From contig JBNRSN020000003.1 of the NCBI GenBank assembly GCA_051313645.2, forward strand, positions 442,370,001-442,434,000: a stretch of DNA of 64,000 bases, read 5' to 3'. Below are positions 12,285 to 63,569 of the stretch, piece after piece. Origin of the DNA: Centroscyllium fabricii. Its lineage: Eukaryota. The number at the start of each line of letters is the position of its first letter. Positions within the stretch are counted from its first letter, which is position 1. Below the pieces are notes generated by a model. The model was not told where the DNA came from and did no database searches. It worked only from the letters and a program-made list of their open reading frames with translations. Position numbers and translations under genes: made by a program.

Positions 12285-12861
12285 AGAAGTCACACAACAC
12301 CAGGTTATAGTCCAGCAGTTTTATTTTAAATCACAAGCTTTCGGAGCTTCTGCCCCTTCGTCAGGTGAAAGAGAGACTGACTTAAAGAACGCACATATGG
12401 GAGGAAGGGAGAAATCCGATCTCTCCCACATCTCACCTTAGCAGAGATAGACAGAGCACTCAAAGGCGTATTAACATATTTTAACACATCAGTCTGAGAG
12501 CAATGAGGCACAGTCGCAAGGGGTCAAATGCTGCAAAACACACAGAATGATTTTTTTATAAAGGAATTTCCTTACAAGAGAAAGATGTCCCTAGTCTGGA
12601 TTGCTCTCAGACTGATGTGTTAAAATATGTTAATACGCCTTTGTGTGCTCTGTCTATCTCTGCTAAGGTGAGATGTGGGAGAGATCGGATTTCTCCCTTC
12701 CTCCCATATGTGCGTTCTTTAAGTCAGTCTCTCTTTCACCTGACGAAGGGGCAGAAGCTCCGAAAGCTTGTGATTTAAAATAAAACTGTTGGACTATAAT
12801 CTGGTGTTGTGTGACTTCTTGCAATTGTCCACCCCAGTCCAACACCGGCACCTCCACATCA
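12285..12861 (+). mobile_element. Penelope-like fold-back pLTR insertion
   Basis: ~220-bp inverted arms (about 12285-12504 and 12600-12820), unique ~38-nt 3' tail ending cctccacatca, TSD ctgtacagttgta. Confidence 0.9.
12736..12773 (+). ncRNA. Minimal type I hammerhead ribozyme (Penelope-associated); antisense copy at 12331-12368
   Basis: tcac-CTGACGA-a-ggggc agaa gctcc-GAAA-gc-tt-gtga: stem I, catalytic core, stem II and palindromic AGCT helix III. Confidence 0.8.
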
Positions 12862-13424
12862 CTGTACAGTTGTAGCAAGACTTCCCTATTTTTATACTCC
12901 ATCCCCCTTAAATTATTATGATTAATTGACAGAGAAGAGCTTACTTTAAGAGGTTGTTATTACTAGGTGTGATGTGCACAGTTTTAAGGGGTCACAAGAA
13001 AGCTTTTTGTTTCAGGTAAGTTAGATAGAGAGAAACTATTCCCTCCTGTGAGTGGAGGGGGGGGGGGGTCCAGAACAAGGGGCCATAACCTTAAAATTAG
13101 AGCCAGGCCGTTCAGGGGTGATGCCAGGAAGCACTTCTTCACACAGAGGAGAGGAAATCTGGAACTCTCTCCCCAAAAAAGCTGTTGAAGCTATGGGTCA
13201 GTTGAAGTTTTGATGGATATTTGTTCAGCAACAGATATTAAGGGTTACGGAACCAAGGCGGTTCGATGGAGTGAAGATTCCGATTCGCCATGATCTAATT
13301 AAACGGTGGAACAGGCTCGAGGGGCTGAATGGCCGCCTCCTGTTCCTATGCTCCTACAAGAAATCTGCCACAGGTAAAGAGATTCTGGCGTAGAGATTTC
13401 GAATTGGAAATAACAGAATACGTA

Positions 13425-13645
13425 TCTCCAGTGAATAGCTGAGCCGTACAGAGTTTGAATCCTGTCTGTTCCAGGTTTGAGCCCTTTCTGTGGAGTTGGC
13501 CAGATTGGAGGTAGGGGCAATGCATTTAGCGTTCCTGTCCCTGGGTTACGGGTGGGAAAGACCGGCCAAGCTCCCTGCTCCTGAAGTGACCCCTGCTGGA
13601 AGTACATGTGTCTAGAAGTCAGGTGAGGACAAGTTAGTGACCATT
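13425..13645 (+). mobile_element. Old SINE fragment, LF-SINE-like
   Basis: cctgctcctga..gtgacccctgctggaa..gtcaggtgaggaca motif recalled from elasmobranch SINEs. Confidence 0.4.
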
Positions 13646-13672
13646 TCTGGAAAGTAAGAGGTAAGAAAGTAT

Positions 13673-14219
13673 GAAAGACTTGCATTTCTCTAGCAACTTT
13701 CACAACCTCAGGACGTCCCAAATGGAAGTACTTTTGAAGTGTCTGTGGTAATATTGAACAGACTTCCAGGGGGAAGACTAAGGGGTGAACTCTGTACATG
13801 TCACTTCCTGTTTCCTGTTACTATAAATACTGGAACTGCTCAGTATGGGGAGAAAGCTTCACCTGGAAGCATGGTAAAACCCATCTTTGTACATAGTGAT
13901 AATGCTTTAAGTTATTGATGTCTCAGACTCCATTATTACATCAATGTCGTCACTGTGTAACGTAAGAAACGAAGCAGCCATTTTGAGCACAGCATGATCC
14001 CACAAACAGCAATGTGATCATGACCAGATAATCAGTTTTTAGTGATGTTGGTCGAGGTATAAATGATGACCAGGACACTGGGAGAATTCGCCTGCTCTTC
14101 TTTGAATAGTGGCCATGGGATCTTTTACGTCCACCTGAAAGAGCAGACAGGACCTGGGTTTAACGTCTCATCCGAAAGACCGCACCTCCGACAGTGCCGC
14201 ACTCACTCAGTACAGCACT
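13673..14219 (-). mobile_element. DeuSINE-like SINE interrupted by a solo LTR
   Basis: Matches the other copies on both sides of 13744-13943. Confidence 0.8.
13744..13943 (+). mobile_element. Solo LTR (200 bp)
   Basis: TG...CA ends, near-perfect 5-bp TSD gtgtc/atgtc, internal tataaata, splits a SINE. Confidence 0.65.
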
Positions 14220-14221
14220 TT

Positions 14222-14718
14222 AAAAAACTTTGTTCATGGGATGTGGGTGTCGCTGGTTAGGCCACCATTTATTGCCCATCCCAGGTTGCCCTTGAGATGG
14301 TGGTGGTGAGCTGTCTTCTGGAACCACTGCCGTCCGTGTGGTGAAGGCACTCCCACAGCGCTGTTAGGGAGGGAGTTCCAGGACTGTGACTCAGTGACAG
14401 TGAAGGAACAGCGATATATTTCCAAGTCAGGATGGTGTGAGACTTGCAGGGGGACTTGGAGGTGGTGGCGTTCCCATGCACCTGCTGCCCTTGTCCTTCT
14501 AGGAAGAGGTCGCAGGTTTGGGAGGTGCTGCGAAGAAGCCTTGGCGAGTTGCTGCAGTGCATCTTGTAGATGGTGTACACTGCAGCCACGGTACGCCAGT
14601 GGTGGAGGGAGTGAATGTTTAAGGTGGTAGATGGGGTGACAATCAAGCGGGCTGCTTTGTCCTGGATGGTGTCGAACTTCTTGAGTGATGTTGACACTGC
14701 ACTCATCCAGGCAAGTGG
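14222..14718 (-). mobile_element. Older CR1-group LINE 3' fragment (second family)
   Basis: DTIQDKAARLI..NIHSLHH..YKMHCSNSPRLL; also at ~38980-39190, 47750-48155, 52238-53560 and 58920-59220. Confidence 0.8.
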
Positions 14719-15299
14719 ATTATTACAACAACAACTTACATTTTTATAGAGCCTTTAACATATTAAAAACTTCACAATGCCCTTCACAGGAGTGTCAGCA
14801 GACAAAACATTACATACAAAGCTGGCCTGGTTGTAGCAAGAGACTGGGCCTGGAGTGGTTTATTAAAAATTAAAGGGAGTTTCTACAAATGCCAGGAGCA
14901 TGTCCTTGGCCAGGTTGTCAGGCAGTTACACAGCCGCAGTGGCTGATGTTTTAGGAGCCTACCCCTTCAGGAATTGTAAGATAACATTTTTAGACATGTC
15001 GGATTAGGCCAATATTCCTACATTACGACAGTGACCACACTTCAAAGGTACTTTCCTGGCCGTAAGCAGCTGATCGATTGAGTGATCAGCAGCGTGATTC
15101 CCTGGCTGAATGCCAAACGAGAACGCCACCACCTCCAAGGTTCCCCTCCAAGTCACACACCATCCTGACTTGGAAATATATCGGCCGATCCTTCATCGTC
15201 GCTGGGTCAAAATCCTGGAACTCCCTCACTAACAGGTCTGTGGGAGCACCTTCACCACACGGACTGCAGCGGTTCAAGAAGGCGTCTCACCACCATCTT

Positions 15300-15667
15300 G
15301 GGCGGCACGGTGGCACAGTGGTTAGCACTGCTGTCTCACAGCACTGGAGACCCGGGTTCAAATCCAGCCTCGGGTACTATCTGTGTGGAGTTTGCACATT
15401 CTCCCCGTGTCTGCGTGGGTTTCCTCCGGGTGCTCCGGTTTCCTCCCACAGTCCAAAGATGTGCGGGTTAGGTTGATTGGCCATGATAAATTGACCCTTA
15501 GTGTTAGGGGGATTGAATATGTGAGGTTACGGGGATAGGGTGGGATATGTGTTAATGCAGGCTCGATAGGGATCGAGGGATATGGGGACAAGGCAGAGAC
15601 CGGGTGCTGGGTTTGGATGATCAGCCATGATCTCATTGAATGGCAGAGCAGGCTCGAAGGGCCGAAT
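15300..15667 (+). mobile_element. HE1-like V-SINE (tail resumes at 18061-18107) inside an old CR1 (about 15122-18185)
   Basis: Head and V-domain intact; tail split at cgaat by a younger CR1. Confidence 0.9.
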
Positions 15668-18055
15668 CATAGAATCATAGAAGATAGGAGCAGGAGTCGG
15701 CCATTCGGCCCTTCGAGCCTGCTCCGCCATTCAATGAGATCATGGCTGATCTTACACGTTCAGTACCCAGTCCCTGCCTTCTCCCCATATCCCTTAATCC
15801 CTTTAGCCTGAAGAAATATATCCAGTTCCCTCTTGAATATATTCAATGAACCGGTTCACCACTCTCTGTGTGAAGAATTTCCTCCTCATCTCAGTCCTAC
15901 AAGGCTTACCCCTTATCCTTAGACTATGCCCCCTGGTTCTCGACTCCCCGGCCATCGGAAACATCCTTTCTGCATCTAACCTGTCCAAGCCTGACAGAAT
16001 TTTATAAGTCTCGATGAGATCCCCTCTTAATCTTCTAAACTCCAGCGAGTATAAGCCCAGACTACACAATCTCTCCTCATAAGTCATTCCTGCCATCCCA
16101 GGTATCAGCCTGGTGAATCGTCGCTGCATTCCCTCCATGGCAAGAACATCCTTCCTCAGATGCGGCGACCAAAACTGCACACAATACTCAAGGTGTGGCC
16201 TCACCAAGACCCTGTACAGCTGCAGCAAGACATCCCTATTCCTATACTCAAACCCTCTTGATATAAAGGCCAATATACCATTTGCCTTTTTAACCGCCTG
16301 CTGCACCTGCATGGTCACCTTCAGTGACTGGTGCACAAGAACACCCAGATCTCTTTGCACTTCCCCATCTCCCAATCTATTGCCGTTCAAATAATACTCT
16401 GCCTTTCTGTTTTTGCTACCAAAGTGGATAACCTCACATTTATCCACATTATAGTGCATTTGCCATGTGTTCGCCCAATCCCCCAATCTGTCCAGGTCGC
16501 TCTGGAGCTTCCCGACATCCTCCTCAGAGCATACTCCCCTTCCAAGCTTAGTGTCATCTGCGAATTTGGAGATGTTACATCGAATTCCCTCATCCAGGTC
16601 ATTAATATATATTGTGAACAGCTGGGGTCCCAGTACCGACCCCTGTGGTACCCCACTAGTCACTGCCCGCCAATCAGAAAATGACCCGTTTATCCCAACT
16701 CTCTGTTTTCTATCTGCCAACCAGTTCTCTATCCATGCCAATACCTTGCCCCCAATCCCATGAGCCTTAATTTTGCCTGCCAATCTCCTATGAGGGACCT
16801 TGTCAAAGGCTTTCTGGAAGTCCAGATAAACCACATCTACTGGCTCTCCCCTATCTATTTTATCGGTTACATCCTCGAAGAATTCCAATAGATTTATCAA
16901 GCACGATTTACCTTTTGTAAATCCATGTTGACTCTGTCCGATCCCATCACTCTTAGTCAAGTGATCTGCTATTACGTCCTTAATAATGGACTCTAGCATT
17001 TTGCCCACAACCGATGTAAGGCTTACCGGTCTATAATTCCCCGCCTTCTCTCTACCCCCCTTTTTGAATAGTGGGGTAACATTAGCTACCCTCCAATCCT
17101 TGGGCACCATTTCAGAGTCTATTGAGTTCTGGAAAATGATCCTCAAAGCATCTGCTATCTCCAGGGCCACTTCCTTAAGCACCCTAGGATGCAGATTATC
17201 AGGCCTTGGGGATTTGTCGGCCTTTAATCCTTTCAATTTCCCGGACACCATATCCTTAGAAATATTGATTTCTTTCAGTTCCTCCCTCTCATTAGTCCCT
17301 ATGTTTCCCGACATCTCCGGGAGGCTATTTGTGTCCTCCTCCGTGAAGACAGAACCAAAATATGAATTTAATTGGTCCGCCATTTCCTTGTTCCCCATTA
17401 TATAATCTCCTGATTCGGACTGCAGGGGCCCGACTCTGGATTTCACCAGTCTCTTCCTTTTAATGTATCTGTAAAAGGTTTTGCAGTCAGTTTTTATGTT
17501 TGCCGCAAGCCTTCTTTCGTAATCTATTTTCCCCTTCTTAATTAATCCCTTTGTCCTCCTTTGCTGTATCCTGAATTGTTCCCAATCTTCAGGTTTGCTG
17601 CTTTTTTTGGCCAGTTGAAACACCCTTTCTTTGGTTTTTATGTTATCCCTAATTTCCCTTGTTATCCACGGTTGAGTCACCTTTTTTGGTTTATTTTTAT
17701 TCCAAACTGGTATAAACAAGCTCTGCGCTTCTTCCATTCGATCTTTGAATGCCTGCCATTGTTGATCCACCGTTAGCCCCCTGAGCGACACCCCCCAATC
17801 AATTGTACCCAACTCTCATCTCATACCATCATAGTTCCCTTTTCTTAAATTTAGGACCTTAGTCTCCGAGTCAATTTCTTCCCTCTCCATTCTGAGTGAG
17901 AATTCGATCATATTATGATCGCTCCGCCCCAATGGGCCTCGTACAACAAGATTGCCAATCAATCCCTTCTCATTGCACAGTACCCAGTCTAAGATGGCCT
18001 GATCCCGAGTTGGTTCCTCGACATATTGGTCCAGGAAACCATCTCGTATACATCT
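15668..18055 (-). mobile_element. Young 5'-truncated CR1 LINE, 2.4 kb
   Basis: End of endonuclease (SDHN) plus RT; cgaat duplicated at 15663 and 18056. Confidence 0.95.
15803..17812 (-). pseudogene. CR1 ORF2 reverse transcriptase remnant (669 aa)
   Basis: NYRPVSLTS, YLDFQKAFDKV, GVPQGSVLGP, FADDTK; in-frame TGA just upstream and a deletion after RVVN. Confidence 0.95.
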
Positions 18056-18706
18056 CGAATGGCCGACTCCTGCTCCTCTCTTCTATGTTTCTATGTTTCT
18101 ATGTTTCTCGAGGGCAACTAGGGATGGGCAATAAATGCTGGGCCTTGTCAACGATGCCCACATCCCAGGAACGAATAAAACTTTAAAAAAAACTTAATTA
18201 TACCTCAAGTGTTTGTGTTGGAGCTCCCAGAAGGAGCTGGGAGTTGATGAGCGCAACACAGATAAACCTCTGGGAGAGGGGGAAAAGTTACCTCCAGCTA
18301 ATCTTTTTCTGTGGTAAAATGAATCCAAATTGAACTATTTCATTACACCGGTAGCTCGAGATTCCAAATGGCAATTCCAACTTCACTTTAGACTTGTGCG
18401 TCCCTTGTTGTTTCTTCGATCATTCATACACAATAATGGTTTGCCTTGTTTATGCAAAAGAGGTTCCTAAAATAGCCCCCATAACACCTTGTGTTGTATT
18501 CCTGTTGCTAGGCGTGAATTTCGAAGAATCAGAGAATCGTACAGCCCAGAAGGAGGCCATTCGGCCCGTCATGTTCTTTAAAAGAACTATCCAATTAGTT
18601 CCACTCCCCCTGTTCTTCCCTCCTCGTCCTCCCAGTGTCCTGGCCAACATTTATCTCTCAACCAACACTACTAATAAAAAATCAGATTACCTGGTTACTT
18701 AAATTA

Positions 18707-19590
18707 CAGGTTGAGCACCGTTAATCTGGCACCCGATGGTCCGGCAGCTTCAGTGGTTCGGCACGAATCGAAACCAGCGGCCTTCAGTTTGTGGAGCAGC
18801 CGCTCGGCGCCGCCGCCGGTTCCCGCAAGGGCTGGGTGAGCGTCGGGCGTTTGGGTTGCTGTTGGACGGTGTTCTATCCCCGGGCTCCCTCCCGGGGAGT
18901 GTTCTACCGCATGCTCCGAGCCCCGGGGAGTGTTCTACCGTGCACTCCGGGCCCCGGGGAGTGTTCTACCGTACACTCTGGGCCCCGGGGAGTGTTCTAC
19001 CGTACACTCCGGGCCCCGGGGAGTGTTCTACCGCACACTCCGGGCCACGGGGAGTGTTCTACCACGCACTCCGGGCCCCGGGGAGTGTTCTCCCGTGCAC
19101 TCCGGGCCCCGGGGAGTGTTCTACCGCGCGCTCCGGGCCCCGGGGAGTGTTCTGCTCCGGGGAGTGTTCTGCCGTGGGCCCCGGGGAGTGTTCTACTGCA
19201 TGCTCCGAGCCACGGGGAGTGTTCTACTGCGCACTCCGGGCCCCGGCGAGTGTTCTACTGTGCGCTCCGGGCCCCGGGGAGTGTTCTACCGTGCGCTCCG
19301 GGCCCCGGGGGAATGTTCTACTGCGCGCTCCGAGCCCCAGCGAGTGTTCTACCGCGCGCTCCGGGACCCGGGGAATATTCTACCGGACCCCAGAGAATGT
19401 TCTACCGCACGCTCTGGGCCCCGGGGAGTGTTCCGCCTTGCGCTCCGGGCCCCGGGGAGTGTTCTACCGTGCACTCCGGGCCCCAGCGAGTGTTCTACCG
19501 CGCGCTCCCCCCGAACCTTTAGTGGTCCTGAATCTTCAGTAATCCGGCACCGGCCTGGTCCCGAGAGTGCCGGTGCCGGTGCTCGTCCTG
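18707..19590. mobile_element. Tigger/pogo-like MITE carrying a minisatellite
   Basis: TA-CAGGTTGAGCACCG ... CGGTGCTCGTCCTG-TA. Confidence 0.8.
18867..19512. repeat. 31-bp GC-rich minisatellite, about 20 copies
   Basis: Unit ggggagtgttctaccgtgcactccgggcccc; the 31-aa period in the ORF track equals three units. Confidence 0.95.
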
Positions 19591-19980
19591 TATTGCTATT
19601 TATGTGCAAATTTTTCCTTTTTCAAGTAAGAATTACACCAGCTTTCAGAATCGCTGCTGCCCCTTCTTGCTTGAAGTATCTCCGATTCTCATTAGCTTAA
19701 GGAACACATGGCCTCCAACGGGTTCTCCATTTAAACTGCAAAATTAAATATTTTTCGCCCAGTGAGTCTCTGCCAACAGTCCTCTTGAGCAATGAATTTT
19801 TGGAGTAATACAATGTTCCGCCCTGCTGTGAGAGCAAGTACGGTGCTCCAAAATCCTGGATGCATACACGTAGCATTTTCTTTTGGATGGGAGCAGATGA
19901 GGTACATTGGATTAGCAGATGGCCCTCTCGCCAGTTTAAAATTCAGGCCAGGAACATGGGTTGAATCAGTCTCACCCTTG

Positions 19981-20016: not shown

Positions 20017-20197
20017 TTGTGCACTAACCTGTTCACATTATTGAGTCTGAAGATGACAAAGGCATAAATGAATGTTTCAGCTGCAGATGGGATCAGGTAG
20101 GGGCGAAGGTAGGCACTGTGATGGGGGTGGTGTTTGTAATGGAGGGGGTATGGAGATGGAAACTCGTCTTGGGGTTGAGTAGGAAGAGAAGGTTACA

Positions 20198-20387
20198 AAA
20201 TAACAACAGGAAGTGCTGGAAACACTCAGCAGGTTGGGCAGTATCGAGGAGAGAAAACACAACCCTTCGATCCGAAACGTTGACATTGTTTCCCTCTCAG
20301 CAGGTCAGGCAGCATCGAGCAGAGTGTTTCCAGCACTTCCTGTTGTTATTTCAGATTTCCAGCACCCGCACTATTTTGCTATTGTCC
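20198..20387 (+). mobile_element. Fold-back element of a second Penelope-like family
   Basis: ~30-bp inverted arms aaataacaacaggaagtgctggaaacactc, cgaaacgtt ribozyme remnant, unique tail, 12-bp TSD gagaaggttaca. Confidence 0.7.
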
Positions 20388-34120: not shown

Positions 34121-34333
34121 TAATGTGGAGGTGCCGGTGTTGGACTGGGGTGGACAAATGCAACAAGTCACACAACACCAGATTTATAGTCCAACGGTTT
34201 TATTTTAAATCACAAGCTTTCGGAGCTTTTGCCCCTTCGTCAGGTCACCTGACGAAGGGGCAAAAGCTCCGAAAGCTTGTGATTTAAAATAAAACCGTTG
34301 GACTATAAATCTGGTGTTGTGTGACTTGTTGCA
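34121..34333 (-). mobile_element. Penelope-like fold-back mini-insertion with two opposed hammerheads
   Basis: 87-bp perfect arms around 34246, tail on the left, 12-bp TSD cttattatttga. Confidence 0.9.
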
Positions 34334-34414: not shown

Positions 34415-34769
34415 ATCACAGAGTGGCCAGAGAGTGTGTGAGCATGTGATTAATTGAGGAGTCACATTAACATGCTGGGAACGTAAGGAGGCGGAGCTTG
34501 GGCGTGTGTGCAAGTTGCTTAAAGGTGGTTCTTGACCTCCTCGAGCTCACTTGTCGAATAGGCGTATTTGCAGGATGGACTGTGTTGAATTGGGCCGCGA
34601 TATTTCTGAGGGTTACGCCAATCTGTCGTCGTTAGCGGCTGCAGCAGATGACTTGCGCTGCCTGTGAAACTGGTTTGGAGTAAGTAGGTTTCTTTCTCGC
34701 TTTCTTATCAGCACTTGTTCACGGCTATATTTACTGCATTTCCACTGAACCCAGGATATGACTGGCCCG
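34415..34769. repeat. Copy 1 of a ~355-bp local direct duplication
   Basis: Aligns end to end with 36165-36523. Confidence 0.9.
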
Positions 34770-34925
34770 TTCCTGGAGACCCACTGTCCAGATGAACGGA
34801 CAAAGATGACCAGGAAGCTTGGAGAGACTTGGACCCCTGCCTTGCAGGCATGAGGGCTTGTGATCGTAACCCCTGCCTTGTAGGCATGATGGCTTGTGAC
34901 TTTGACCCCTGCCTCGTAGGCATGA

Positions 34926-35504
34926 TGCAAGAAATCACACACCACCAGGTTATAGTCCAACAGTTTTATTTGAAATCACAAGCTTTCCGAGCGCTGCTCC
35001 TTCTTCAGGTGTAAGAGAAATTCATTTCAACACAGCATATATACGAGGGAGAGAGCAGTGTAATCTTTCCAACATCACACCTCAGCGGAGAGACATACAA
35101 AGCGAACAAAGGTGTTTTAACATATTTTAACATATCAATCAGGCACCAGCCTGAGATCAATGATTTCCTGCTGCGATTTCCAGTAAGGAAACTTTTTTTA
35201 AATCATTCTGTGGGTTTTAACACAGACACCAGACTGCAACATTTGACCCTTTGTGACTATACCTCATTGATCTCAGGCTGGTGCCTGATTGATATGTTAA
35301 AATATGTTAAAACACCTTTGTTCGCTTTGTATGTCTCTCTGCTGAGGTGTGATGTTGGAAAGATTACACTGCTCTCTCCCTCCTATATATGCTGAGTTTA
35401 AATGAATTTCTCTTCAACCTGAGGAAGGAGCAGCGCTCCGAAAGCTTGTGATTTCAAATAAAACGGTTGGACTATAACCTGGTGTTGTGTGACTTCTTGC
35501 ATTT
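34926..35504 (+). mobile_element. Penelope-like fold-back insertion (second subfamily); hammerhead core CTGAGGA at 35419
   Basis: ~240-bp inverted arms, gtaggcatg duplicated at the flanks. Confidence 0.9.
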
Positions 35505-35559: not shown

Positions 35560-36131
35560 TGCAAGAAGTCACACAGTGAAGGACATTCAGCCTCCGATCC
35601 TCGGGTAAGCATTCTCCAAGGCGGCCTTCGAGACACACGACAACGCAAAATCTTCGAGCAGAGGCTGATAGCCAAATTCCACACCCATGAGGACGGCCTC
35701 AACCGTGATATCGGCTTCATGTCACGCTACATGTGACCCTGCCTGACGTAGAGTCATCCAGACTACAGACATCTTTGTCTTGTAAGGAAATTCCTTTTTT
35801 TTTAAATCATTCTGTGTGTTTTCGCAGACAAGAGGACTGCAGCATTTGACCCTTTGTGACTGTGCCTCATTGATCTCAGACTGATATGTTAAAATATGTT
35901 AATACACCTTTGTCTGCTCTGTTTGTCTCTTTGCTAAGGTGAGATGTGGGAGAGATCGGATTTCTCTCTCCCTTGCATAGGTGCTTTCTTTTGGATCAAC
36001 TTCACTTCACCTGAGGAAGGAGCAGCGCTCCGAAAGCTTGTGATTTAAAATAAAACTGTTGGACTATAACCTGGTGTTGTGTGACTTCTTGCATTTGTCC
36101 ACCCCAGTCCAACACCGGCACCTCCACATCA
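35560..36131 (+). mobile_element. Penelope 3' fragment: GIY-YIG C-terminus, pLTR and tail
   Basis: GHSASDPRVSILQGGLRDTRQRKIFEQRLIAKFHTHEDGLNRDIGFMSRYM* (stop 35734-35736); short inverted 5' piece; TSD atgttgYtttg. Confidence 0.9.
36007..36043 (+). ncRNA. Minimal hammerhead ribozyme
   Basis: tcac-CTGAGGA-a-ggagc agc gctcc-GAAA-gctt-gtga. Confidence 0.8.
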
Positions 36132-36164: not shown

Positions 36165-36523
36165 ATCACAAAGTGGCCAGAGCGTGTTGTGGGCATGTGA
36201 TTGATTGAGGAATCATATTAACATGCTGGGAGCTTGAGGGGGCGGAGCTTGGGCGTGTGTGCAAGTTGCTTAAAGGTGGTTCTGGACCTCCTCGAGCTCA
36301 CTTGCCGAATAGGCGTATTTGCAGGATGGATTGTGTTGAATTGGGCCGCGATATTTCTGAGGGTGACGCCAATCTGTCGCCGTTAGCGGCTGCAGCGGAT
36401 GGCTTGCGCTGCCTGTGAAACTGGTTTGTTGCAAGTAGGTTTCTCTCTCTGGCTTTCTTATCAGCACTTGTTCACGGCTATATTTTACTGCATTTCCACT
36501 GAACCCAGGCCACGACTGGCCCG
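36165..36523. repeat. Copy 2 of the ~355-bp duplication; contains GC box, GT-like box and CCAAT
   Basis: ggggcggagc, gggcgtg, gccaatc. Confidence 0.9.
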
Positions 36524-38058: not shown

Positions 38059-38827
38059 TCATAAAGTTATACAGCACAGAAAGAGGCCCTTCGGCCCATC
38101 GTGTCCGCACTGTCCATCGAGCCCTGTCTATTCTAATCCCATTTGCCTGCATTTGGTCCGTAGCCTTGTGTGCTATGACATTTCAAGTGCTCATCTAAAT
38201 GCTTCTTGAATGTTGTGAGGGTTCCTGCCTCCACCACCCTTCCAGGCAGTGAGTTCCAGATTCCAACCACCCTCTGGGTGAAAAAGTTCCTCCTCAAATC
38301 CCCTCTAAACCTCCTGCCCCTTACCTTGAAACTATGCCCCCTGCTTATTGACCCCTCTGCTAAGGGGAAAAGTTCCTTTCTATCTACCCTATCTATGCCC
38401 CTCATAATTTTGTACACCTCAATCAGGTCCCCCCCCTCAGCCTTCTCTGCTCCAAGGAAAACAACCCCAGCCTGTCCAGTCTTTCTTCATAGCTGAAGTG
38501 CTCCAGCCCAGGTAACATCCTGGTGAATCTCTTCTGCACCCTCTCCAAAACAATCACATCCTTCCTATAGTGTGGCGACCAGAACTGCACACAGTACTCC
38601 AGCTGTGGCCTTACCAGCGTTTTGTACAGCTCCATCATAACCTCCCTGCTCTTATATTCTATGATGTGGAGGTGCTGGTGTTGGACTGGGGTGGACAATT
38701 GTAAGAAGTCACACAACACCAGGTTATAGTCCAACAGCTTTATTTGAAATCACAAGCTGTTGGACTATAACCTGATGTTGTGTGACTTGCCTTCATTAGC
38801 CGAGGCATAGAATATAAGCATCCCATA
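38059..38827 (-). mobile_element. CR1 3' fragment with a Penelope insertion near its 5' end
   Basis: [22 protein letters not shown]. Confidence 0.9.
38662..38788 (-). mobile_element. Penelope-like mini fold-back
   Basis: Tail plus pLTR end up to tcacaagct, then the inverted arm. Confidence 0.85.
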
Positions 38828-40505: not shown

Positions 40506-42203
40506 GGCACGGTGGCATAGTGGTTAGCACTGTTGTCTTACAGCCCTGGAGACCCAGCTTCAAATCCAGCCGCGGGTGACTATCTGTGTGGAGTTTGCAC
40601 ATTCTCCCCGTGTCTGCGTGGGTTTCCTCCGGGTGCTCCGGTTTCCTCCCACAGTCCAAAGATGTGCGGGTTAGGTTGATTGGCCAGGATAAATTAACCC
40701 TTAGTGTTAGGGGGATTGAATATGTGGGGTTGGGGGTAATATTCTGGCATTGGTGGAGGATTGGCTTTCTAACAGAAAACAGAGAGTTGGGATAAATGGT
40801 TCGTTCTCAGACTGGCAATCAGTCACTAGTGGTGTTCCGCAAGGGTCGGTGCTAGGACCCCAACTCTTTACAATCTATATTAACGATTTGGAAGAAGGGA
40901 CCAAGTGCAACATATCAAAGTTTGCGGATGACACAAAAATGGGAGGGAGGGTGATGAATGAGGAGGACATTAAAAACCTGCAAAAGGACATAGATAGGCT
41001 AAGTGAGTGGGCAGAGATTTGGCAGATGGAGTATAATACTGGAAAATGTGAAGTTATGCACTTTGGCAGGAAAAATAATAGAGCGAGTTATTATCTAAAT
41101 GGAAAGGAACTGGAAAGTACTTCAGTGCAAAGGGATCTGGGGGTCCTGGTGCAGGGGACACAGAAAGTTAATATGCAGGTGCAGCAGGTGGTAAGGAAGG
41201 CCAACGGAATGTTGGCTTTTATTGCTAAGGGGATTGAGTATAAAAGCAGGGAGGTCTTGTTGCAGTTGTACAGGGTATTGGTGAGACCACACCTGGAATA
41301 CTGCGTGCAGTTCTGGTGTCCCTATTTAAGAAAGGACATACTTGCTCTCGAGGCAGTGCAGAGAAGATTCACTAGGTTAATTCCGGGGATGAGGGGGCTA
41401 ACATATGACGAGAGGCTGAGTGGATTGGGCCTCTACTCATTGGAGTTCAGAAGAATGAGAGGCGATCTTATTGAAATATATAAGATTGTGAGAGGGCTTG
41501 ATCGGGTGGATGCGGTGAGGATGTTCCCAATGGTGGGTGAGACTAGGACTAGGGGGCATAGTCTTAAAATAAGGGGCTCACATTTCAAAACTGAGATGAG
41601 GGGGAACTTCTTTACTCAGAGGGTGGTGCGGCTGTGGAATTTGCTGCCCCAGAGAGCTGTAGAAGCTACTACGTTGAATAAATTTAAAACTGAGATAGAC
41701 AGTTTCCTGGAATTAAAGGGAATTAGGGGTTATAGTGAACGGGCTGGTAAGTGGACGTGAGGCTAGGTTCAGATCGGCCATGTGATCTCCTGGACCAGTT
41801 TTCGATCGCCTAGATGGGTCGGAGAGGAATTTTACTGTTTTTTTTCTCCCAAATTGGCTACTGGGTTTTTTAATCTGGTTTTTCGCCTCTCCCCGGTGAT
41901 CACATTGGTCTGGGCGGGGTGGAGAGTAAAAATAAAATTGAGGTTAGGATCAGATCAGCCATGATCTTATTGAATGGCGGAGCAGGCTCGAGGGGCCGAT
42001 TGGCCTACTCCTGCTCCTATTTCTTATGTTCTTATGTTCTTATGTTACGGGGATAGGGTGGGATATGTGTCGATGGAGGCTCGATAGGGATTTGGGGAGA
42101 GGGCAGGGGTGGGGTGCTGGGTTTGGATGATCAGCCATGATCTCATTGAATGGCAGAGCAGGCTCGAGGGGCCGAATGGCCTACTCCTGCTCCTAGTTTC
42201 TAT
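40506..42203 (+). mobile_element. HE1-like V-SINE split by a CR1 and itself inside a CR1 (about 40470-42455)
   Basis: SINE reads tatgtggggtt|...|acggggatagg. Confidence 0.85.
40750..41760 (+). pseudogene. CR1 ORF2 RT C-terminal half (element about 40732-42045)
   Basis: GVPQGSVLGP, FADDTK, uninterrupted 336 aa, 5'-truncated. Confidence 0.95.
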
Positions 42204-42645: not shown

Positions 42646-43323
42646 AGGCCCTGTCACACCTTGACGAATTAGCTAGCGCATGCCGACGTATGCAAATTTA
42701 TCTAAAACGCTGGCGTTCGCTGAACTATCGATGTTTTTTTCAGTTTTGGGCGTTTACTAGCGTATTCATAACGAGTTGGACGTATGCATAACGTATTAGT
42801 AACGTACACAGAGCGTATCGATAACTTACACCAACTTATACCAACGAATGCTTAGCGTGTTGTCTAGGCTGTATGGCTGCTTCATGGTTGGTTGTAAGGC
42901 GAAGGCATCGTCACCGATAAAGAAGTAAGGCACGTCCTGGTTGTCGTTGGGAAGAGGCTCAGGGTCAGTGAAACCAAGGGTACCGTCTTCAGCGCATTCC
43001 TTCAGCTCAGAGTCATTGTATATCTGCGCATCTGATGCAGATCCAGTACCGCCGACATCTGCCCAAATGAATTTGTAGTCAGCATCCACAAGCGCCATCA
43101 GAACAATGGAGTAGAATCCTTTGTAGTTGTAGTATTGGGACCCAGTCTTTGGAGGACAGCGGCAGGCCACGTGCTTCCCGTCAAGTGCCCCACATGTATG
43201 GGGAAAGTTCCATCGTTGGAAGAACTTGTCAGCTATGGCGCGCCAACCATCAGGAGTACTTGGGCAAACCATCACCTCATCCACGTATTCGTCAATAATG
43301 GCTTGACAGACTTCTCTGACCAC
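42646..43323 (-). mobile_element. PIF/Harbinger remnant: one terminus plus DDE transposase fragment
   Basis: GALDGKH..YNYKGFYSIVLMALVDADYKF..GSASD..FIGDDAFAL; TAA then AGGCCCTGTCACACC terminus. Confidence 0.9.
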
Positions 43324-43842
43324 TAGGAGTCTGACCTAGCAGGAGGGGGTACTGGGTTTGGATGATCAGCCATGATCTCATCAAAATGGCAGAGCAGGCT
43401 CGAAGGGCCGACTGGCCTACTCCTGTTCCTATCTTCTGTGTTTCTGTGAATTTGAAGCCTTTCCAAAGTTAAGAATATCTTAAAGAATGTAAGCCATAGA
43501 GGGCCAGAGACACCAACAAATTGGGGGTGTATTGGGACATATGTCTGGAACCACGGCCGAAGTCAGCCTGAGCGTCAGGTTCGACCCCTGTGCAGCAACA
43601 GGTGGTGTAATAGGTCAGATCTGGACCTGGCTGTGAAACCCCCTTTTACCATTAGGAAATATATAAACTCAAGTGCACATTTGGATTTCCAAAAATAGGA
43701 CTTAAGGGTTTGCCCGCCGTTATCTTCTGCCATTCCCAACAATGATGTAGTAATTGAACTCCAGTATAAATTGGTTTTACGATGCTTAAACCTGGTTATA
43801 ATGGTGTTTAAGACACTAATCCCGCTTCGGAGGGTAAATATT

Positions 43843-44620: not shown

Positions 44621-45704
44621 AATATGTAAATGTCGATTTGTGTGGCAGATTCTACACAGGAGGCGATCTAGAGTGTGGAATTATCTTAGCTCTTACTCTT
44701 ACTCTGTTAAGGCCAAGCGTAACGCAGTAATGACTTGGTTTTTGCCTCAACCTTTCCTTATAAGATGTTTATCTTTGAGAAGCAGTTAAATAGTTGTTCT
44801 GGGCTCTACTTTCACCTGTTAGTGGAAGAAAATGTAATCAAAGTACTTCAGCTGCCTCAGTCCTAAGCTCTGGAATTCCACGTCTAAACCTCTCCACATC
44901 TCTCTCTCTCCTTCTTTAAGACGCTCCTTAAAACCTACCTCTTTGACCAAGGTTTTGGTCATCTGTCCTAATATCTCCTTACGTGGCTCGGTGTCAAATT
45001 TCACTTGTTAATGGCTCCTGCGTTAAAGGCGCTGTATAAATGCACGTTGTTGTTGTTGGAAGGCATCAACGCTGATGTGGTTCTAGTGTGCCGCTCGCTA
45101 CCTCCCCAGTGCTCCCCATTCTGTGTGAAGCTTTCACTGTCTATTCTTGAATTACTGTTTTCATATTCTGGGTTTCTCTGACTGGATCTCTTGCCTCTCA
45201 ATCCTGTTTCCTATTTCTCGGCAACACTTTTTTTTGTTTCTTTCTCTCCGTGCTATTTAAATGCAACCTCTCTCCTTTCCTGACTTGCTGCCATACCAGT
45301 CTTCTGTTGAAAAGCAAAATTCACAAATTTTTGCACCTCCTTCGGAAATGTTTTATCTGGCGGAACAGTTAACGGTGTCACTTGGTTTCAGTTAGAAGTA
45401 CCCTGTACTCTCGCCTCTTAATTCAAAAAGGTTATAGGCTCAAGCCTGTAAGGAAATGTAAAACATAACAAGTTGACAACTTGACATATGCTAACCATCC
45501 CATGGTTCTCTTTACCTATGTGATTAACTGCAAAGCTTGCAAAAATGCCAAGAAGAGATGATGTGGGGTTCAGAGTAGTTTGGCAGTGTTGGGGTTAAAA
45601 TAGATGTGTCTCAGAAAGTGCTGAGACTAGATAAGCTTGGAAGAACTGGAGCATAATGCAGCAGTGAGCAATTTTGCGCCAAAACAGGTCATTAAAAGAA
45701 GAAA

Positions 45705-46159
45705 AAAAGACTTGCATTTATATAGTGCCTTTCACGACCGCAGGACGTCCCAAAGCACCTTGCAGCCAATGAAGTATAGTCACTGTTGTAATCTGGGAAA
45801 CATGGCAGCCAATTTATGCACAGCAAGCTCCCACAAACAGCAATGTGATAATAACCAGATAATCTGTTTTAATGATGTTGATTGAGGGATAAATATTGGC
45901 CAGGACACTGGGGATAACGCCCCCTGCTCTTCTTCAAAATAGTAGCCATGGGATCTTTTACGCCCACTTGAGAGAGCAGATGGGGCCTCTGTTTAACGTC
46001 TCATCCGAAAGATGGCACCTCCGACAGTGCGGCACTCCCTCAGTACTGCACTGGAGTATCAGCCTAGATTTTTGGGCTCAAGTCTCTGGAGTGGGACTTG
46101 AACCCATAACCTTCTAACTCAGAGGCGGGAGGGCTACCCACTGAGCCACAGCTGACACT
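45705..46159 (-). mobile_element. DeuSINE-like SINE
   Basis: Full-length match to the other copies. Confidence 0.85.
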
Positions 46160-46219
46160 GCAACATACTGCAGAACTAGTTTAGGTCGGGGTTAGTCAAA
46201 GGGGATAGCACGTGGTGCT

Positions 46220-46511
46220 AGGGTTACATCATATCCTGTGACCACCGTAGGTGTGTTTTAGTAAAAGCTATAAATATGGGACAGAGCCGTAAGCTTTTTG
46301 TTATTCAAGGCTAAGAACCACCTTGGATATGATAAACTCCTAGTCCCCGATGGGTATCTTACTTGTGAGTATATCGACGAATTGCTTGCTTGTGATGATC
46401 TCTTAATTTTCAATAAATCTCTGAAGTAAATCTGTCTAGTGTCCAAGCCTGTTACAGGGAATTATTCAGGACTATGTTGTAAGTCCTAATATTTTGGCGA
46501 CCATAGCAGGA
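46220..46511 (+). mobile_element. Possible LTR end plus primer-binding site remnant
   Basis: ctataaata, aataaa, then TGGCGACCATAGCAGGA; left boundary uncertain. Confidence 0.4.
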
Positions 46512-47185
46512 TAATTTATTATATTTTACTTTTCCTTACAAAGCTCCTAATCTAGACTGACATGCTAAGAGTGCTGCATTGTTAGCGGTGCCGTCATTTG
46601 AGTGAGACATTCCACTGAGGCCCAGTCTGCGTGTTGCGATGGAGGTAAAAGATCCCAGAGCACTGCTTGTTTGAAGAAAGGGCAAGGGGAGTTCTTCAGG
46701 CCAAGATTTATCCCTCAACCAACACTACCAAAAACAAACAAAGGGATGGTGCAACTCATTTTGGTGTTTGTGGGATCTTGCTGTGTGTACATTGGCTACA
46801 GTATTTGCTTACATAACAACGCTGGCTGCACTTCAAAAATACGTTATTGGCATTGAGATATCCTGAGGGTGTGAAAAGGTGCTGCATTAATACAAGATCT
46901 TTGTCCTTTTGCATGTATAGAATTACAATAACAACAGTTTGCATTTCTATAGCGTCTTTAACGTAACAAAAGGTCCCAAGGTGTTTACAGAGGATGTGTA
47001 GCACAGAAACGCGCCATTCGACCCAACTGGGATGATGTTGATTGTGAAGCATTGGAATTGATCAGAATTTTTGAAATGTCAGTCTCCTTTATTTATGATT
47101 GAGTGAGCGGACTGCTTCCTGGCAGGAAAAAACATATATCAGTTATTGTAGAGTTTGTTGGCTTGTATTTTTATTTTTTCCCTTA

Positions 47186-47590
47186 ACATAGAAACATAGA
47201 AGATAGGAGCAGGAGTAGGCCATTCGGCCCTTTGAGCCTGCTCCACCATTCAATGAGATCATGGCTGATCATCCAAACCCAGTACCCCGTCCTTGCCTTG
47301 TCCCCATATCCCTCGATCCCTATCGAGCCTGCACCGACACACATCCCACCCTATCCCTGTAACCCCACATATTCAATTCCCCTAACACTAAGGGTCAGTT
47401 TATCATGGCCAATCAAACTAACCCACACATCTTTGGACTGTGGGAGGAAACCAGAGCACCCGGAGGAAACCCACGCAGACACGGGGAGAATGTGCAAACT
47501 CCACACAGATAATCACCCGAGGCTGGATTTGAACCCGGGTCTCCAGAGCTGTGAGGCAACAGTGCTAACCACTATGCCACCGTGCCGCCC
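47186..47590 (-). mobile_element. HE1-like V-SINE, long-tail form
   Basis: As 25045-25453. Confidence 0.9.
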
Positions 47591-48624
47591 TTGATTCTCC
47601 CCGCATCAGGTACCTACCTTGGCCACACATGTAAGCTTGAGGCCGACCACTAGACCTCCTTCAGTTAGCTCTTGCATAGCCAGAAGCCAGACAGGGACGA
47701 GGGGCTCTCTGTATTTCTTTGCTTGGGTCTGTTTTTTAGCATTTAAAAAAAAATTGTTTATGGGATGTGGGTGCCGCTGGCAAGGCCAGCATTTATTGCC
47801 CATCCCTAATTGCCCTTGAGAAGGTGGTGGTGAGCCGTCTCCTTGAACCGCTGCAGTCCGTGTGGTGAAGGTACTCCCACAGTGCTGTTAGGGAGGGAGT
47901 TCCAGGATTTTGACCCAGCGATGATGAAGGAATGGCTGGTATATTTCCAAGTCAGGATGGTGTGTGACTTGGAGGTGGTGGTGTTCCCATGCGCCTGCTG
48001 CCCTTGTCCTTCTCGGTGGAAGAGGTCGCGGGTTTGGGAGGTGCTGCCGAAGAAGCCTTGGCGAGTTGCTGCAGTGCATCTTGTAGATGGGGTACTCTGC
48101 AGCCACGGTGCACCGGTGCTGGAGGGAGTGAATATTTAAGGTGGTGGATGGGGTACATCTTCCCAGAGCAGCGTGGTTGAGATCTGGAGTAGTCAACATG
48201 AGGTTTCATCCCATCACTCTTGTAATGTTATATATTGTTTTTCCTCCTTGTAATATGAGGTTCAGCCTTAAGTATGAAGAAGTTACAAGGAAAAGAAATA
48301 AATAAAACTTGCATTTCTATGGCGCCTTTCACGACCTCGGGACATCCCAAAGAGCTTTACAGCCAATGGAGTATTTTGGGAATGTAGTTACTGTTGTAAT
48401 GTAGGAAACGCGACAGCTAATTTGCGCACAGCAAGCTCCCACAAACAACAATGAGATAATGACCAGATAATCTGTTTTAGTGATGTTGGTTGAGGGATAA
48501 ATATTGGCCCCAGGACACCGGGGATAACTTTCCTGCTGTTCTTTAAAATAGTGCCATGGGTCTCTTGGGATCTTTTACATCCACCCGAGAGAGCAGACGG
48601 AGCCTTGGTTTTAATGCCTCATCC

Positions 48625-49200
48625 AACATCATACAGTAAGGGAGCAGAATGTGGGTGAAAGTTGGCCCGACGAGTCAGAACAAAAAAGATGGCCACCGGG
48701 AGTGGGCTGCGAGTTCGAGCGGCTCCGGGGGAGCTGGCATGGCGGGAGAAGCAGACCCCGGGCCATCGGACACCGCTCCCGCTATCGCAGCTGCACATCT
48801 GCGCCGATGTGTTCGGCGAGTCAACGAAGCAGCAGAAGCGGCGACGATGACGACCCGCTGCAGCACGTCGGCCGGCAGCTCCTCGGCGGGAGGCTCGAGG
48901 CCCCGACTGTGAGGAGGGGGTGCTGGGCATGAAGAAGGAGGAGGAGGCTGCAGCGGCGGGGTGAACGGAGCGGCTGAAGAACATCGAACGTTGAGAGCAG
49001 GAGAAGCCAGAGCGGAGCAGGAACGGGGCCCGTGACGATGGCGCCGATGAATATGGCTGCCGTCTTACGGGCTCTGTGCATGCCGGGCAGCTTAGTGTCC
49101 TTTGTTGCGCGGTGTATTCGGCTCATAAAGAAAGCGTTTCACTGTCTCGATTGCACCCGTTGTATTTTAGTACATGTGACAAATAAAACTGAATTGAATT
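48625..49200 (+). mobile_element. CpG-rich non-coding retroelement with a Rex1-like tail, inserted in a DeuSINE (about 48305-49348)
   Basis: Host reads ctcatcc|gaaagacggc; ends gtacatgtgacaaataaaact(gaatt)n. Confidence 0.75.
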
Positions 49201-49689
49201 GAAAGACGGCACCTCCGACAGTGCGGCTCTCCCTCAGCACTGCACTGAGTGTGTCAGACTGGATTATTTGCTCAAGTCTCTGGAGTAAGACTTGAACCCA
49301 CCGACCTTCTGACTCTGAGGAGGGAGAGCCACCCGCTGAACCTCGGCATTGGCAGAGATCGGCGAGGAGGCCTCCTCTCCCCTACCGATCCGCTTGGGAG
49401 TGGAGAGTTGGAAGTCCAACAGGACTAAACAGGAAGATAATTATTTACTTAGTGGGAAGAAAATCAGCAATAAAAAGGGGGAGAACAGAAATCATTTTGC
49501 AGCAGTGATTCTGCATGTTCCATTTGTAGTGCCATTCTCCCCTCCTACTGAGTATGGTGCCATCACCTGTTACGACACTGTATTTGTTACGTGGCAAAGC
49601 TTTTAATGAAAAGATCAAAGATAGAACTTTTGTAAGTTACTTCAGGGGTACATGTTTCAGCACCAGTCGATTGTGGTACAGGCTGCACT

Positions 49690-50240
49690 GTGTGAAAACT
49701 ATCAGGACATAAGGGGGAATTTCTACCCAAAATTCATAAAAACATGCAAATATGCCCTGAATTCAAAAATTTGAATGACCACCAAAAACTCCCATATCTA
49801 TTGGGGAACAGAGGAACTGTGTAAAATTAGCGGCAAACTATGTTACAGCTTGCCATAAGCCGAGGGACAACCAGTGACCATTGAATCTAAGAAAAATTAT
49901 ATGTGTATTATATGTGTGTGTGTGTGTATTTTTTTAAAATATATATATATATATATATATATATAGCCATGATGTGGAGGTGCTGGTGTTGGACTGGGGT
50001 GGACAAATGCAAGAAGTCACACAACACCAGGTTATAGTCCAACAGTTTTATTTTAAATCACAAGCTTTCGGAGCGCTGCTCCTTCGTCACCTGTGTGACT
50101 TTTTAATATATATATATATATATATACATGGGTATATTTGTCTATACACTATGTCTAGATCTGCGTCTGTGTTCTTTTTCTGTGCTTTGGCAACACAAGA
50201 TGTATCTTGTCATGCCAATAAAGCAAATTGAATTGAATTG
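49690..50240 (+). mobile_element. Truncated L2/Crack copy
   Basis: CPEFKNLNDHQKLPYLL..RDNQ*, catgccaataaagc end. Confidence 0.85.
49970..50103 (-). mobile_element. Penelope-like mini insertion in a (TA)n tract
   Basis: Tail plus pLTR up to the TGACGA core, then a short inverted tgtgtgactt. Confidence 0.85.
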
Positions 50241-50932
50241 AGTGAAATGACAGGGGCTCACAGTACTGGAAATATCCCCTGTTGAAAGAATTTCACATGC
50301 TGTGACAACGTGCCCAACAAACACCTCTCTGGGGGACCTCCGTGCTTTTTCCTTGCCGCCTTTGTCTGAGTTTCATGAAAACCCATCGAGGTGACGAGTG
50401 TCCCATTACCGAATGTCTCGCTGCCCACTTCTGTCAATCAATGCTAGCATTGCTGCTTCATTCTGTAGCTTCCTGAACGCTAGGCTGCTTTGGACTGCAC
50501 TGCACTCCATTCCCCAATTGGTTTTCTTTGTGTTACACCGTCTCCTCATTCTGACCCAGCACTGTGTTTCAAATAATGCTAGCTATCACTACCATAACTT
50601 CCAATTCGCAGATAAAAATACTTTCATATCCTGGGGGTGTTTTGACATAGAAACATAGAAGATAGGAGCAGGAGTAGGCCATTCAGTCCCTTGAGCCTGC
50701 TCCGCCATTCAATGAGATCATGGCTGATCATCCAAACTCAGTACCCTGCCCCTGCTTTCTCCCCATATCCCTTGATCCCTTTAGCCTTAAGAAATATATC
50801 CAACTCCTTCTTGAATATATTTAATGAATTGGCCTCTACGGCCTTCTGTGGTAGAGAATTCCACAGGTTCACCACTCTCTGGGCGAAGAAATTCCTCCTC
50901 ATCTCTGTCCTAAATGGCTTACCCCTTATCCT

Positions 50933-51141
50933 TGCAAGAAGTCACACAACACCAGGTTATAGTCCAACAGTTTTATTTTAAATCACAAGCTTTCGGAGCT
51001 TCTGCCCCTTCGTCAGGTGAAAGAGAAGGGGCAGAAGCTCCGAAAGCTTGTGATTTAAAATAAAACTGTTGGACTATAACCTGGTGTTGTGTGACTTCGT
51101 GCATTTGTCCACCCCAGTCCAACACCAGCACCTCCACATCA
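50933..51141 (+). mobile_element. Penelope-like fold-back insertion next to a CR1 fragment (50646-50932, minus)
   Basis: ~85-bp inverted arms, tail on the right. Confidence 0.9.
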
Positions 51142-63567: not shown

Positions 63568-63569
63568 TT

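What the first reader, a model, noticed from the sequence alone, without database searches (positions are those of the whole stretch)
12285..51141. Family of short fold-back Penelope insertions carrying minimal hammerhead ribozymes
Seen: seven insertions (12285, 34121, 34926, 35560, 38662, 49970, 50933) share a pLTR end. Their inverted arms begin at nearly the same point (around tgcaagaagtcac). Six have a single-copy ~38-nt tail, and four have direct TSDs of about 9-13 bp. The motif tcac-CTGANGA-a-stemII-GAAA-gc-tt-gtga keeps stem II paired while the loop varies (ggggc-agaa-gctcc, ggggc-aaaa-gctcc, ggagc-agc-gctcc). Established: Penelope-like elements carry minimal type I hammerheads that are thought to cleave as dimers through a palindromic helix III. 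Inference: these 130-580 bp units put a ribozyme on both strands, so a host transcript crossing them could form long dsRNA or self-cleave. Some may move as non-autonomous, retrozyme-like units.
Basis: partly seen in the sequence, partly recalled or inferred. Interest (0 to 1): 0.7.

Follow-up and report, generated by a model that had tools for sequence, protein, structure and literature searches.

The report
Penelope fold-backs with fossil ADAR edits
These hairpin-shaped insertions are real but are back-to-back stubs of a known jumping gene (a Penelope-like element), likely built anew at each landing from two separately primed copies rather than spreading as a family; dozens of copies elsewhere in the genome carry dense one-way A-to-G changes, likely RNA edits by ADAR that were copied back into the DNA.

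Summary
The seven insertions, six one-sided tails, four direct TSDs and the minimal hammerhead motif are confirmed. They are ends of an abundant RT-encoding Penelope-like element (about 250,000 copies, 135,000-433,000). Inverted arm, tail, TSD and opposite-strand hammerheads are all published.

They are not a self-copying retrozyme family. Joints differ among 65 sampled fold-backs, and where a joint recurs, tail side and variants differ. Only 1 of 7 has intact motifs on both strands, and the duplex masks them (52-73 kcal/mol).

Mechanistic clues: exactly one tail in 20 of 21 joint-selected copies; either arm can be longer; 5 of 49 have arms of two haplotypes; inner ends pile up 7-11-fold at the hammerhead's 5' edge. 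This fits two cDNAs primed on a 12-13-nt staggered cut and then joined.

The dsRNA inference holds elsewhere in the genome. One source/copy pair shows 76 of 160 A>G in the arms against 8 of 455 in flanks, with ADAR's neighbour bias. Fifty places carry an edited motif, and 17 of 28 have a SINE/LINE tail on the RNA's 3' side (controls 12 of 119). None of the seven is edited. The scan noted similar stubs and edited fossils before on other DNA of this genome.

The parts
12285..12861 (+). Fold-back insertion: inverted arm 12285-12601, joint with 2-nt overlap at 12600-12601, sense arm 12600-12861 with tail; 13-nt TSD 12272-12284 / 12862-12874
12736..12773 (+). Intact minimal hammerhead motif (TCAC-CTGACGA-A-GGGGC-AGAA-GCTCC-GAAA-GCTT-GTGA); predicted cut after 12769
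12331..12368 (-). Intact minimal hammerhead motif on the inverted arm
34121..34333 (-). 213-bp near-perfect fold-back, tail on the left (34121-34158), joint at 34246, 12-nt TSD; motif intact on + (34245-34282), helix I mismatched on - (34210-34247)
   Evidence: same joint 90 times genome-wide
34926..35503 (+). Fold-back without tail, 9-nt TSD; motifs at 35415-35451 (+, helix I 2 of 4 pairs) and 34976-35012 (-, closing G-C of helix II lost)
35560..36131 (+). 5'-truncated copy: 17-nt inverted arm, last 52 codons of the ORF (35578-35733), 3' UTR/pLTR, one intact motif (36007-36043), tail ending at the ORF's start codon; 11-nt TSD with one mismatch
38662..38788 (-). 127-bp fold-back, tail on the left, joint at the AAGCT palindrome, no hammerhead core; right flank 38789-38819 is an inverted copy of the target
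49968..50101 (-). Tail arm that stops inside the core (C3 missing) plus a ~12-nt second arm, in a (TA)n tract
50932..51142 (+). 211-bp fold-back, tail on the right; intact motif only on - (50983-51020); no TSD; left flank is the same site of a LINE-tail repeat that is a genome-wide insertion hot spot
   Evidence: hot spot 485 matches

Best explanation
The seven units are 5'-truncated ends of an RT-encoding Penelope-like retroelement joined head to head, likely made anew at each insertion when both strands of a 12-13-nt staggered cut prime separate cDNAs, one from the tail site and one about 37 nt inside it, and some such units elsewhere in the genome were likely ADAR-edited as RNA and recopied into DNA. 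Shown: origin from the element; two fixed outer ends (about +54 and +91 from the predicted cut, the latter at the ORF's ATG); one tail per unit; TSD length; either arm can be the longer; inner ends pile up at -27 to -46; recurrent joints differ in tail side and variants; one-way A>G clusters confined to paired arms. Inferred: that the two outer ends are the two RT start sites found in vitro for the anole element; that a dimeric protein primes both strands; that early-stopped cDNAs are joined end to end at short or no overlap; that the pile-up marks a 5' boundary of the template RNA or a strong stop. Predicted: the hammerhead is masked inside fold-backs and does not cut host RNA. Inferred: edited read-through RNAs were reverse-transcribed from a downstream SINE/LINE tail by LINE machinery in the germ line.
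For: RT ORF upstream of the same end (Pfam RVT_1 E 4e-11); tail runs into the ORF's ATG. Inverted arm starts at +53 to +57 in 45 of 65. One tail in 20 of 21 joint-selected copies, none with two (p 1e-5 against free choice). TSD in 46 of 60, mode 12-13 nt, 73% A+T. Short arm reaches more than 10 nt further in 24 of 65, tail arm in 14, so neither is simply a copy of the other. Arms differ together at stem II pair 3 and loop length in 5 of 49. Stop rate in -27 to -46 is 6.8-fold (tail arms) and 10.7-fold (short arms) the rest. Two RT start sites bound the tail, both strands are cut and extended, a dimer is predicted and uncleaved RNA is the main template in PMC11167929. Editing: 76 of 160 A>G in arms, 8 of 455 in flanks, 0 of 6 in the tail; edited after U 25/31, A 29/48, C 18/48, G 4/33. 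50 places match an edited motif; 27 of 28 examined are skewed outside the motif; tail repeat on the RNA's 3' side in 17 of 28 against 12 of 119, and in the opposite orientation in 1 of 28.
Against: Arms mostly share their variants (42 of 49 at stem II pair 3, shuffled mean 24), as self-copying or one shared RNA would also give; mixed arms could come from later gene conversion. Inner ends are correlated (Spearman 0.58) and several joints are near-perfect palindromes. PMC11167929 saw no difference in start site between strands, so the one-tail rule is not explained by that assay. The pile-up zone was chosen after seeing the data; only 5 of 37 single-arm copies end in it (12 of 37 in -27 to -70) and only 1 of 8 copies with the ORF's 5' end starts there. 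The 12285 joint recurs three times, more than I would expect without a hot spot. Samples are the first matches on one contig. Only one source/copy pair was found; none of the seven window units is edited. The second part of the ORF gave no Pfam hit, so the GIY-YIG label is by eye.
Confidence: 0.7

Rival explanations
1. Self-priming: one cDNA (or an antisense template) folds back at its 3' end and copies itself to make the inverted arm, as proposed for rotifer Penelope elements; the tail would come from endonuclease resolution of the intermediate.
For: Proposed in PMC3846280 and, for the tail, PMC8557442. Arms share variants in 42 of 49; 27 of 65 have inner ends within 10 nt; palindromic joints at CATATG and AAGCTT.
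Against: Either arm can run hundreds of bases further into the element (24 and 14 of 65); 5 of 49 have arms of two haplotypes; it does not by itself fix the second end at about +54.
Confidence: 0.13
2. The short fold-backs are a non-autonomous family: the unit's own RNA is copied whole by the Penelope protein, or circularises like a retrozyme.
For: A size class of about 180-240 bp (median 240); the 34121 joint occurs 90 times and the 12285 joint 4 times; non-autonomous PLE derivatives are published.
Against: Among 21 copies with the 34121 joint the tail is left in 12, right in 8, absent in 1, and loop and diagnostic bases vary. The four 12285-type copies differ in tail side and arm variants. 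Only one position pair recurs among 65 joints, with different letters. No tandem direct hammerheads; motifs masked.
Confidence: 0.1
3. The A-to-G clusters are not ADAR edits but assembly error or a DNA-level mutational process acting on cruciform DNA.
For: No RNA of this organism was on hand; the fossils are known from one assembly plus short contigs of runs that may be the same sample.
Against: The changes are on one strand in both arms, stop at the arm ends, avoid a 5' G, and their polarity tracks a SINE/LINE tail; the two flanks of the L262 segment are joined directly in contigs, so it is an insertion.
Confidence: 0.05

Closest known systems
Complex insertions of endonuclease-containing Penelope-like elements (Adineta vaga Pen2/Pen3a, PMC3846280; overview in PMC8557442; D. 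virilis Penelope, PMC2377424)
   Same: 5'-truncated copy, adjacent inverted pLTR, one-sided 30-40-nt tail at the start of the ORF, TSD, palindromic joints.
   Different: TSD 12-13 nt here against 8-10 nt in the rotifer; most copies are reduced to the two ends; about 250,000 copies allow counts (one-tail rule, mixed arms, pile-up) that I did not find in those passages.
Poseidon element of Anolis carolinensis, PAc (PMC11167929)
   Same: Two ends 30-40 nt apart that define the tail; A+T-rich targets; hammerhead in the pLTR; uncleaved RNA as main template.
   Different: In PAc the start sites lie 111-118 nt inside the ORF and the ATG is at stem II; here the outer site is at the ATG, 91 nt behind the predicted cut. 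In vivo each unit uses each site once.
Minimal type I hammerheads of metazoan PLEs (PMC4209133)
   Same: Short helix I, extra A between A9 and G10.1, G10.1-C11.1, palindromic helix III without loop; opposite-strand pairs 100-700 bp apart already reported.
   Different: Activity untested here; masked in fold-backs.
Non-LTR retrozymes (10.64898/2026.07.22.740005)
   Same: PLE-derived, non-coding, type I hammerhead.
   Different: Those are head-to-tail arrays with two or more same-strand motifs; these are head-to-head with at most one sense motif per RNA.
ADAR hyper-editing of inverted repeats: lizard Penelope RNA with over 40,000 sites (PMC5625713); A-to-G hypermutated avian retroviral DNA (review PMC12925331)
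   Same: About half of the A's changed in paired regions, depletion after G.
   Different: Here the edits are fixed in chromosomal DNA of non-viral retrocopies; APOBEC G-to-A fossils in LTR elements (PMC4866542) are the published genomic analogue.

Membership tests
Endonuclease-containing Penelope-like elements | Single ORF with reverse transcriptase | tested here: met
   RVT_1 E 4e-11 in L051; ORF pieces continuous with the window's end
Endonuclease-containing Penelope-like elements | C-terminal GIY-YIG endonuclease | tested here: inconclusive
   Motif-like VVYLIRC...WYIGET seen by eye (label recalled); no Pfam hit
Endonuclease-containing Penelope-like elements | pLTR repeated before and after the ORF, with 30-40-nt tail | tested here: met
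   pLTR precedes the ATG in L180, L182, L185, L187, L189, L197; two end classes
Endonuclease-containing Penelope-like elements | Inverted 5'-truncated copy and TSD | tested here: met
   65 of 116 with an inverted arm from the inner end; TSD 46 of 60
Penelope/Poseidon clade | Placement in an RT tree | not tested
   No reference proteins were fetched; the clade name is a resemblance only
Minimal type I hammerhead | CUGAnGA and GAAA core, helices I and II, extra base 9.1, palindromic helix III | tested here: met
   All features in 64 of 87 tail arms that span the motif; GCTT in 84
Minimal type I hammerhead | Compensatory base changes | tested here: inconclusive
   Only a one-sided change at helix II pair 3; the 3' neighbour region is as conserved as the motif (0.97 against 0.89-0.99)
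Minimal type I hammerhead | Self-cleavage as a dimer | not testable with these tools
   6 of 23 arm ends between +45 and -26 lie within 1 nt of the predicted cut, but helix I and AAGCTT also offer overlap there
Non-LTR retrozymes | Tandem direct repeats with two or more same-strand hammerheads | tested here: not met
   Head-to-head units, at most one sense motif per strand
Non-LTR retrozymes | Copies descend from a replicating unit | tested here: not met
Non-LTR retrozymes | Circular RNA | not testable with these tools
   No raw RNA reads were available
ADAR hyper-edited retrocopies | One-strand A>G cluster limited to dsRNA, depleted after G | tested here: met
   (copies outside the window)
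ADAR hyper-edited retrocopies | Unedited source locus and a retroposition tail | tested here: met
   L261 to L262, 2,253 aligned nt ending in a LINE-type tail; tail polarity 17 of 28 against 12 of 119; source found for one case only

The most novel reading that the evidence does not exclude
Each fold-back is the footprint of a dimeric Penelope RNP that holds two element RNAs, paired through the hammerhead's AAGCUU palindrome as a dimerisation signal rather than as a cutter, and primes them asymmetrically (one at the tail site, one at the inner site) on the two strands of one cut. The resulting hundred thousand or more ready-made hairpins feed ADAR, and LINE machinery writes the edited RNAs back into the germ line hundreds to thousands of times, so that this genome archives its own past RNA editing.
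Probability: 0.25. Interest if true: 0.8.

Novelty: new member of a known kind. Interest (0 to 1): 0.5.

Why it matters
How Penelope-like elements make their inverted arm and one-sided tail is still open. The one-tail rule, the mixed-haplotype arms and the pile-up at the hammerhead's 5' edge give predictions that the existing in vitro system can test directly. The fossil edits show that these hairpins are paired and deaminated in germ-line RNA and that such edits can become heritable DNA changes through retroposition; my searches found this for retroviruses and for RNA, not for chromosomal non-viral retrocopies. The seven window units themselves are ordinary dead stubs.

Tried and rejected
Rfam scan: no hammerhead family, only hairpin look-alikes below the gathering score. 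RNA evidence: no RNA holder listed. Two runs of another organism guessed to be RNA cover mainly the hammerhead-to-tail block; they are contigs of uncertain kind and were not used as evidence. Splicing as cause of the pile-up: a donor-like AG/GTG site lies about 80 nt upstream, as in D. virilis, where the intron ends at helix I, but no spliced copy was found against 177 unspliced matches (loci overlap; four short hits were false); undecided. Simple start-site model: TATA-like and pyrimidine-rich motifs are present, but 5 of 8 copies with the ORF's 5' end begin further upstream; undecided. The idea that L162/L169 marked a replicating composite family was rejected: the 485 matches are mostly independent insertions at one site of an abundant repeat. 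Source search with the flank of L322 was uninformative, the flank being a repeat. A 60-nt DNA search for the tail returned nothing because common words are skipped. First TSD count (33 of 60) was cut short by a private variant in the reference copy and replaced. No host exon was recognised among the window's long ORFs (by eye only). Lunse et al. (PMC5785218) is not held.
Full report
Observation. The seven insertions are present as described. Six carry the tail on one side only and four have direct TSDs of 9-13 nt. Positions below are counted from the predicted hammerhead cut (0 = G of GTGA). Complete, undamaged motifs on both strands exist only in 12285; 34121 and 34926 have one or both damaged, 35560 and 50933 have one, 38662 and 49970 none. 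The stem II variation is a one-sided G.U/A-U change.

Identity. The window lies in a 7.21-Gb genome; earlier scan notes call it a shark, which I did not test. Unit 35560 ends an ORF; longer copies carry an RT frame (RVT_1, E 4e-11) and a nuclease-like C-terminus that Pfam did not name. The tail runs straight into the ORF's ATG at +91. In 37 evenly spaced 10-kb stretches from four large contigs I counted 13 units by eye, or about 250,000 copies (135,000-433,000). The layout is published: inverted truncated copy, 30-40-nt tail and TSD (PMC3846280, PMC8557442, PMC2377424; passages), minimal hammerheads including opposite-strand pairs 100-700 bp apart (PMC4209133; parts 1-2 of 4), and two RT start sites that bound the tail (PMC11167929; parts 1-2 of 4).

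Sample. I took 120 loci selected by the tail alone: the first 90 of 1,332 matches and the first 30 of 6,629, all on one contig. Four were dropped (L169, a copy of L162; L143, L159, L170, which run on into the ORF), and one inner end (L109) was set by hand. Of 116, 65 have an adjacent inverted arm starting at +40 to +66 (45 at +53 to +57), 37 have none detected and 14 have one starting elsewhere. Exact TSDs of 8 nt or more occur in 46 of 60 scored, mostly 12-13 nt, against 2 of 600 shuffled pairs.

Not a replicating family. Among 65 joints only one position pair recurs (three times, with different letters). The 34121 joint occurs 90 times; in the 20 fetched plus the window copy the tail is left in 12, right in 8 and absent in 1, and loop and diagnostic bases vary. 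The 12285 joint occurs 4 times with up to two mismatches, again with different tail sides and arm variants. Low-level recopying cannot be excluded. The common size (median 240 bp) arises because inner ends pile up at -27 to -46: 32 ends in 1,678 nt at risk for tail arms and 23 in 969 for short arms, 6.8- and 10.7-fold the rest (zone chosen after seeing the data). The cause is open. An RNA 5' end, a strong stop and an intron boundary were considered; no spliced copy was found. Six of 23 ends downstream of the zone lie within 1 nt of the predicted cut, a hint of some cleaved templates that short overlaps could also explain.

How they form. Exactly one tail in 20 of 21 copies chosen by joint, none with two (p 1e-5), means the two outer ends are used asymmetrically. 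The short arm reaches more than 10 nt further into the element in 24 of 65 and the tail arm in 14, so both were templated on the element. In 5 of 49 the arms differ together at stem II pair 3 and loop length, pointing to two template copies; in 42 of 49 they agree (shuffled mean 24), which also fits one RNA or self-copying. With the in vitro findings for the anole element (both strands cut and extended, two start sites, predicted dimer, uncleaved template) the best reading is dual priming and end joining of two short cDNAs. The joining step and the dimer are inferred.

The ribozyme in host RNA. In a head-to-head unit the antisense arm is transcribed first in either direction. Forcing the hammerhead fold costs 52-73 kcal/mol in 12285, 34121, 34926 and 50933, but 3 kcal/mol in 35560, which is almost unpaired. 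Minimal motifs need a partner and cleave weakly even then (PMC4209133; PMC6765202, passages). Self-cleavage of host transcripts by fold-backs is therefore unlikely; it was not tested.

dsRNA and ADAR fossils. L262 is a 2.25-kb copy of L261, 8.3 Mb away, ending in a LINE-type tail (label by eye). Read as that RNA, 76 of 160 A's in the paired arms are G, against 8 of 455 in flanks, 2 of 28 in the imperfect centre and 0 of 6 in the tail; editing follows U 25/31, A 29/48, C 18/48, G 4/33. Depletion after G is the general ADAR signature, and lizard Penelope RNA is heavily edited (PMC5625713, passages). A 27-nt edited motif from L262 matches 50 places with up to two mismatches. Of 30 fetched, two were duplicates; 27 of 28 are skewed outside the motif (440 T>C of 1,335 T, 35 A>G of 955 A), and a SINE/LINE tail repeat lies on the RNA's 3' side in the right orientation in 17 of 28 against 12 of 119 controls, and in the wrong orientation in 1. 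Short contigs of unclassified runs carry edited letters and join the two flanks of L262 directly; these runs may be the assembly's own sample. Edited copies are rare: one locus among 191 arm pairs scanned (duplicates included) and none of the seven window units. One motif in one polarity gives only a lower bound.

Known and new. A-to-G hypermutated retroviral DNA is known (review PMC12925331, passages; the 1994-95 papers not read), and APOBEC fossils in LTR elements are known (PMC4866542, listing and passages). Searches listed no paper on ADAR-edited non-viral retrocopies fixed in chromosomes, and none on the one-tail rule or mixed arms; the library lacks most subscription papers, and no supplements were read, which may hold such counts. 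Retrozymes are tandem arrays (10.64898/2026.07.22.740005, parts 1-2 of 5) and these units fail that test. Earlier scan notes on other DNA of this genome report the same stubs and other edited fossils; my editing result came before that look-up, and the notes supplied the retrovirus papers and the splice-site lead.

Verdict. The units are new members of a known kind. Interest is 0.5, for testable constraints on Penelope integration and for the fossil editing.

Noticed in passing
window 50860-50932; L261-L290: One site (CCCTTATCCTTA) in an abundant LINE-tail repeat is an insertion hot spot: 485 matches of tail plus target with up to one mismatch, with different joints in the 30 examined.
   Followed up: partly
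window 60022-63738 (-): Uninterrupted 1,238-residue frame that looks like a LINE endonuclease-RT ORF2 (by eye), possibly young.
   Followed up: no
window 15803-17815 (-) and 40720-41760 (+): CR1-like RT frames of 670 and 346 residues (by eye).
   Followed up: no
window 42826-43335 (-): Harbinger-like transposase fragment (by eye).
   Followed up: no
window 34415-34770 and 36165-36523: A 92% identical local duplication brackets the three clustered insertions 34121, 34926 and 35560. The window holds 7 units against 2.2 expected (p 0.008).
   Followed up: partly
window 38789-38819: Inverted copy of the target sequence in place of a direct TSD.
   Followed up: partly
L007:1481-1914; L075:3112-3653: Some inversions do not overlap the sense arm but continue upstream of it, the geometry of L1 twin priming (recalled).
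   Followed up: no
L095, L115, L205, L207 (tail arms): Four tail arms stop at +27/+28, at ACCTGG.
   Followed up: no
L324:1051-1642: Most heavily edited copy (99 of 156 T>C) with further inverted pieces behind it, possibly a multi-arm structure.
   Followed up: no
library of 81 pLTR copies: Sequence upstream of helix I falls into diverged subfamilies (0.63-0.77 conserved) while helix I to +54 stays at 0.89-0.99.
   Followed up: partly
window 10043-10122, 15568-15802, 20178-20372: Other hairpin-like inverted repeats unrelated to this element.
   Followed up: no
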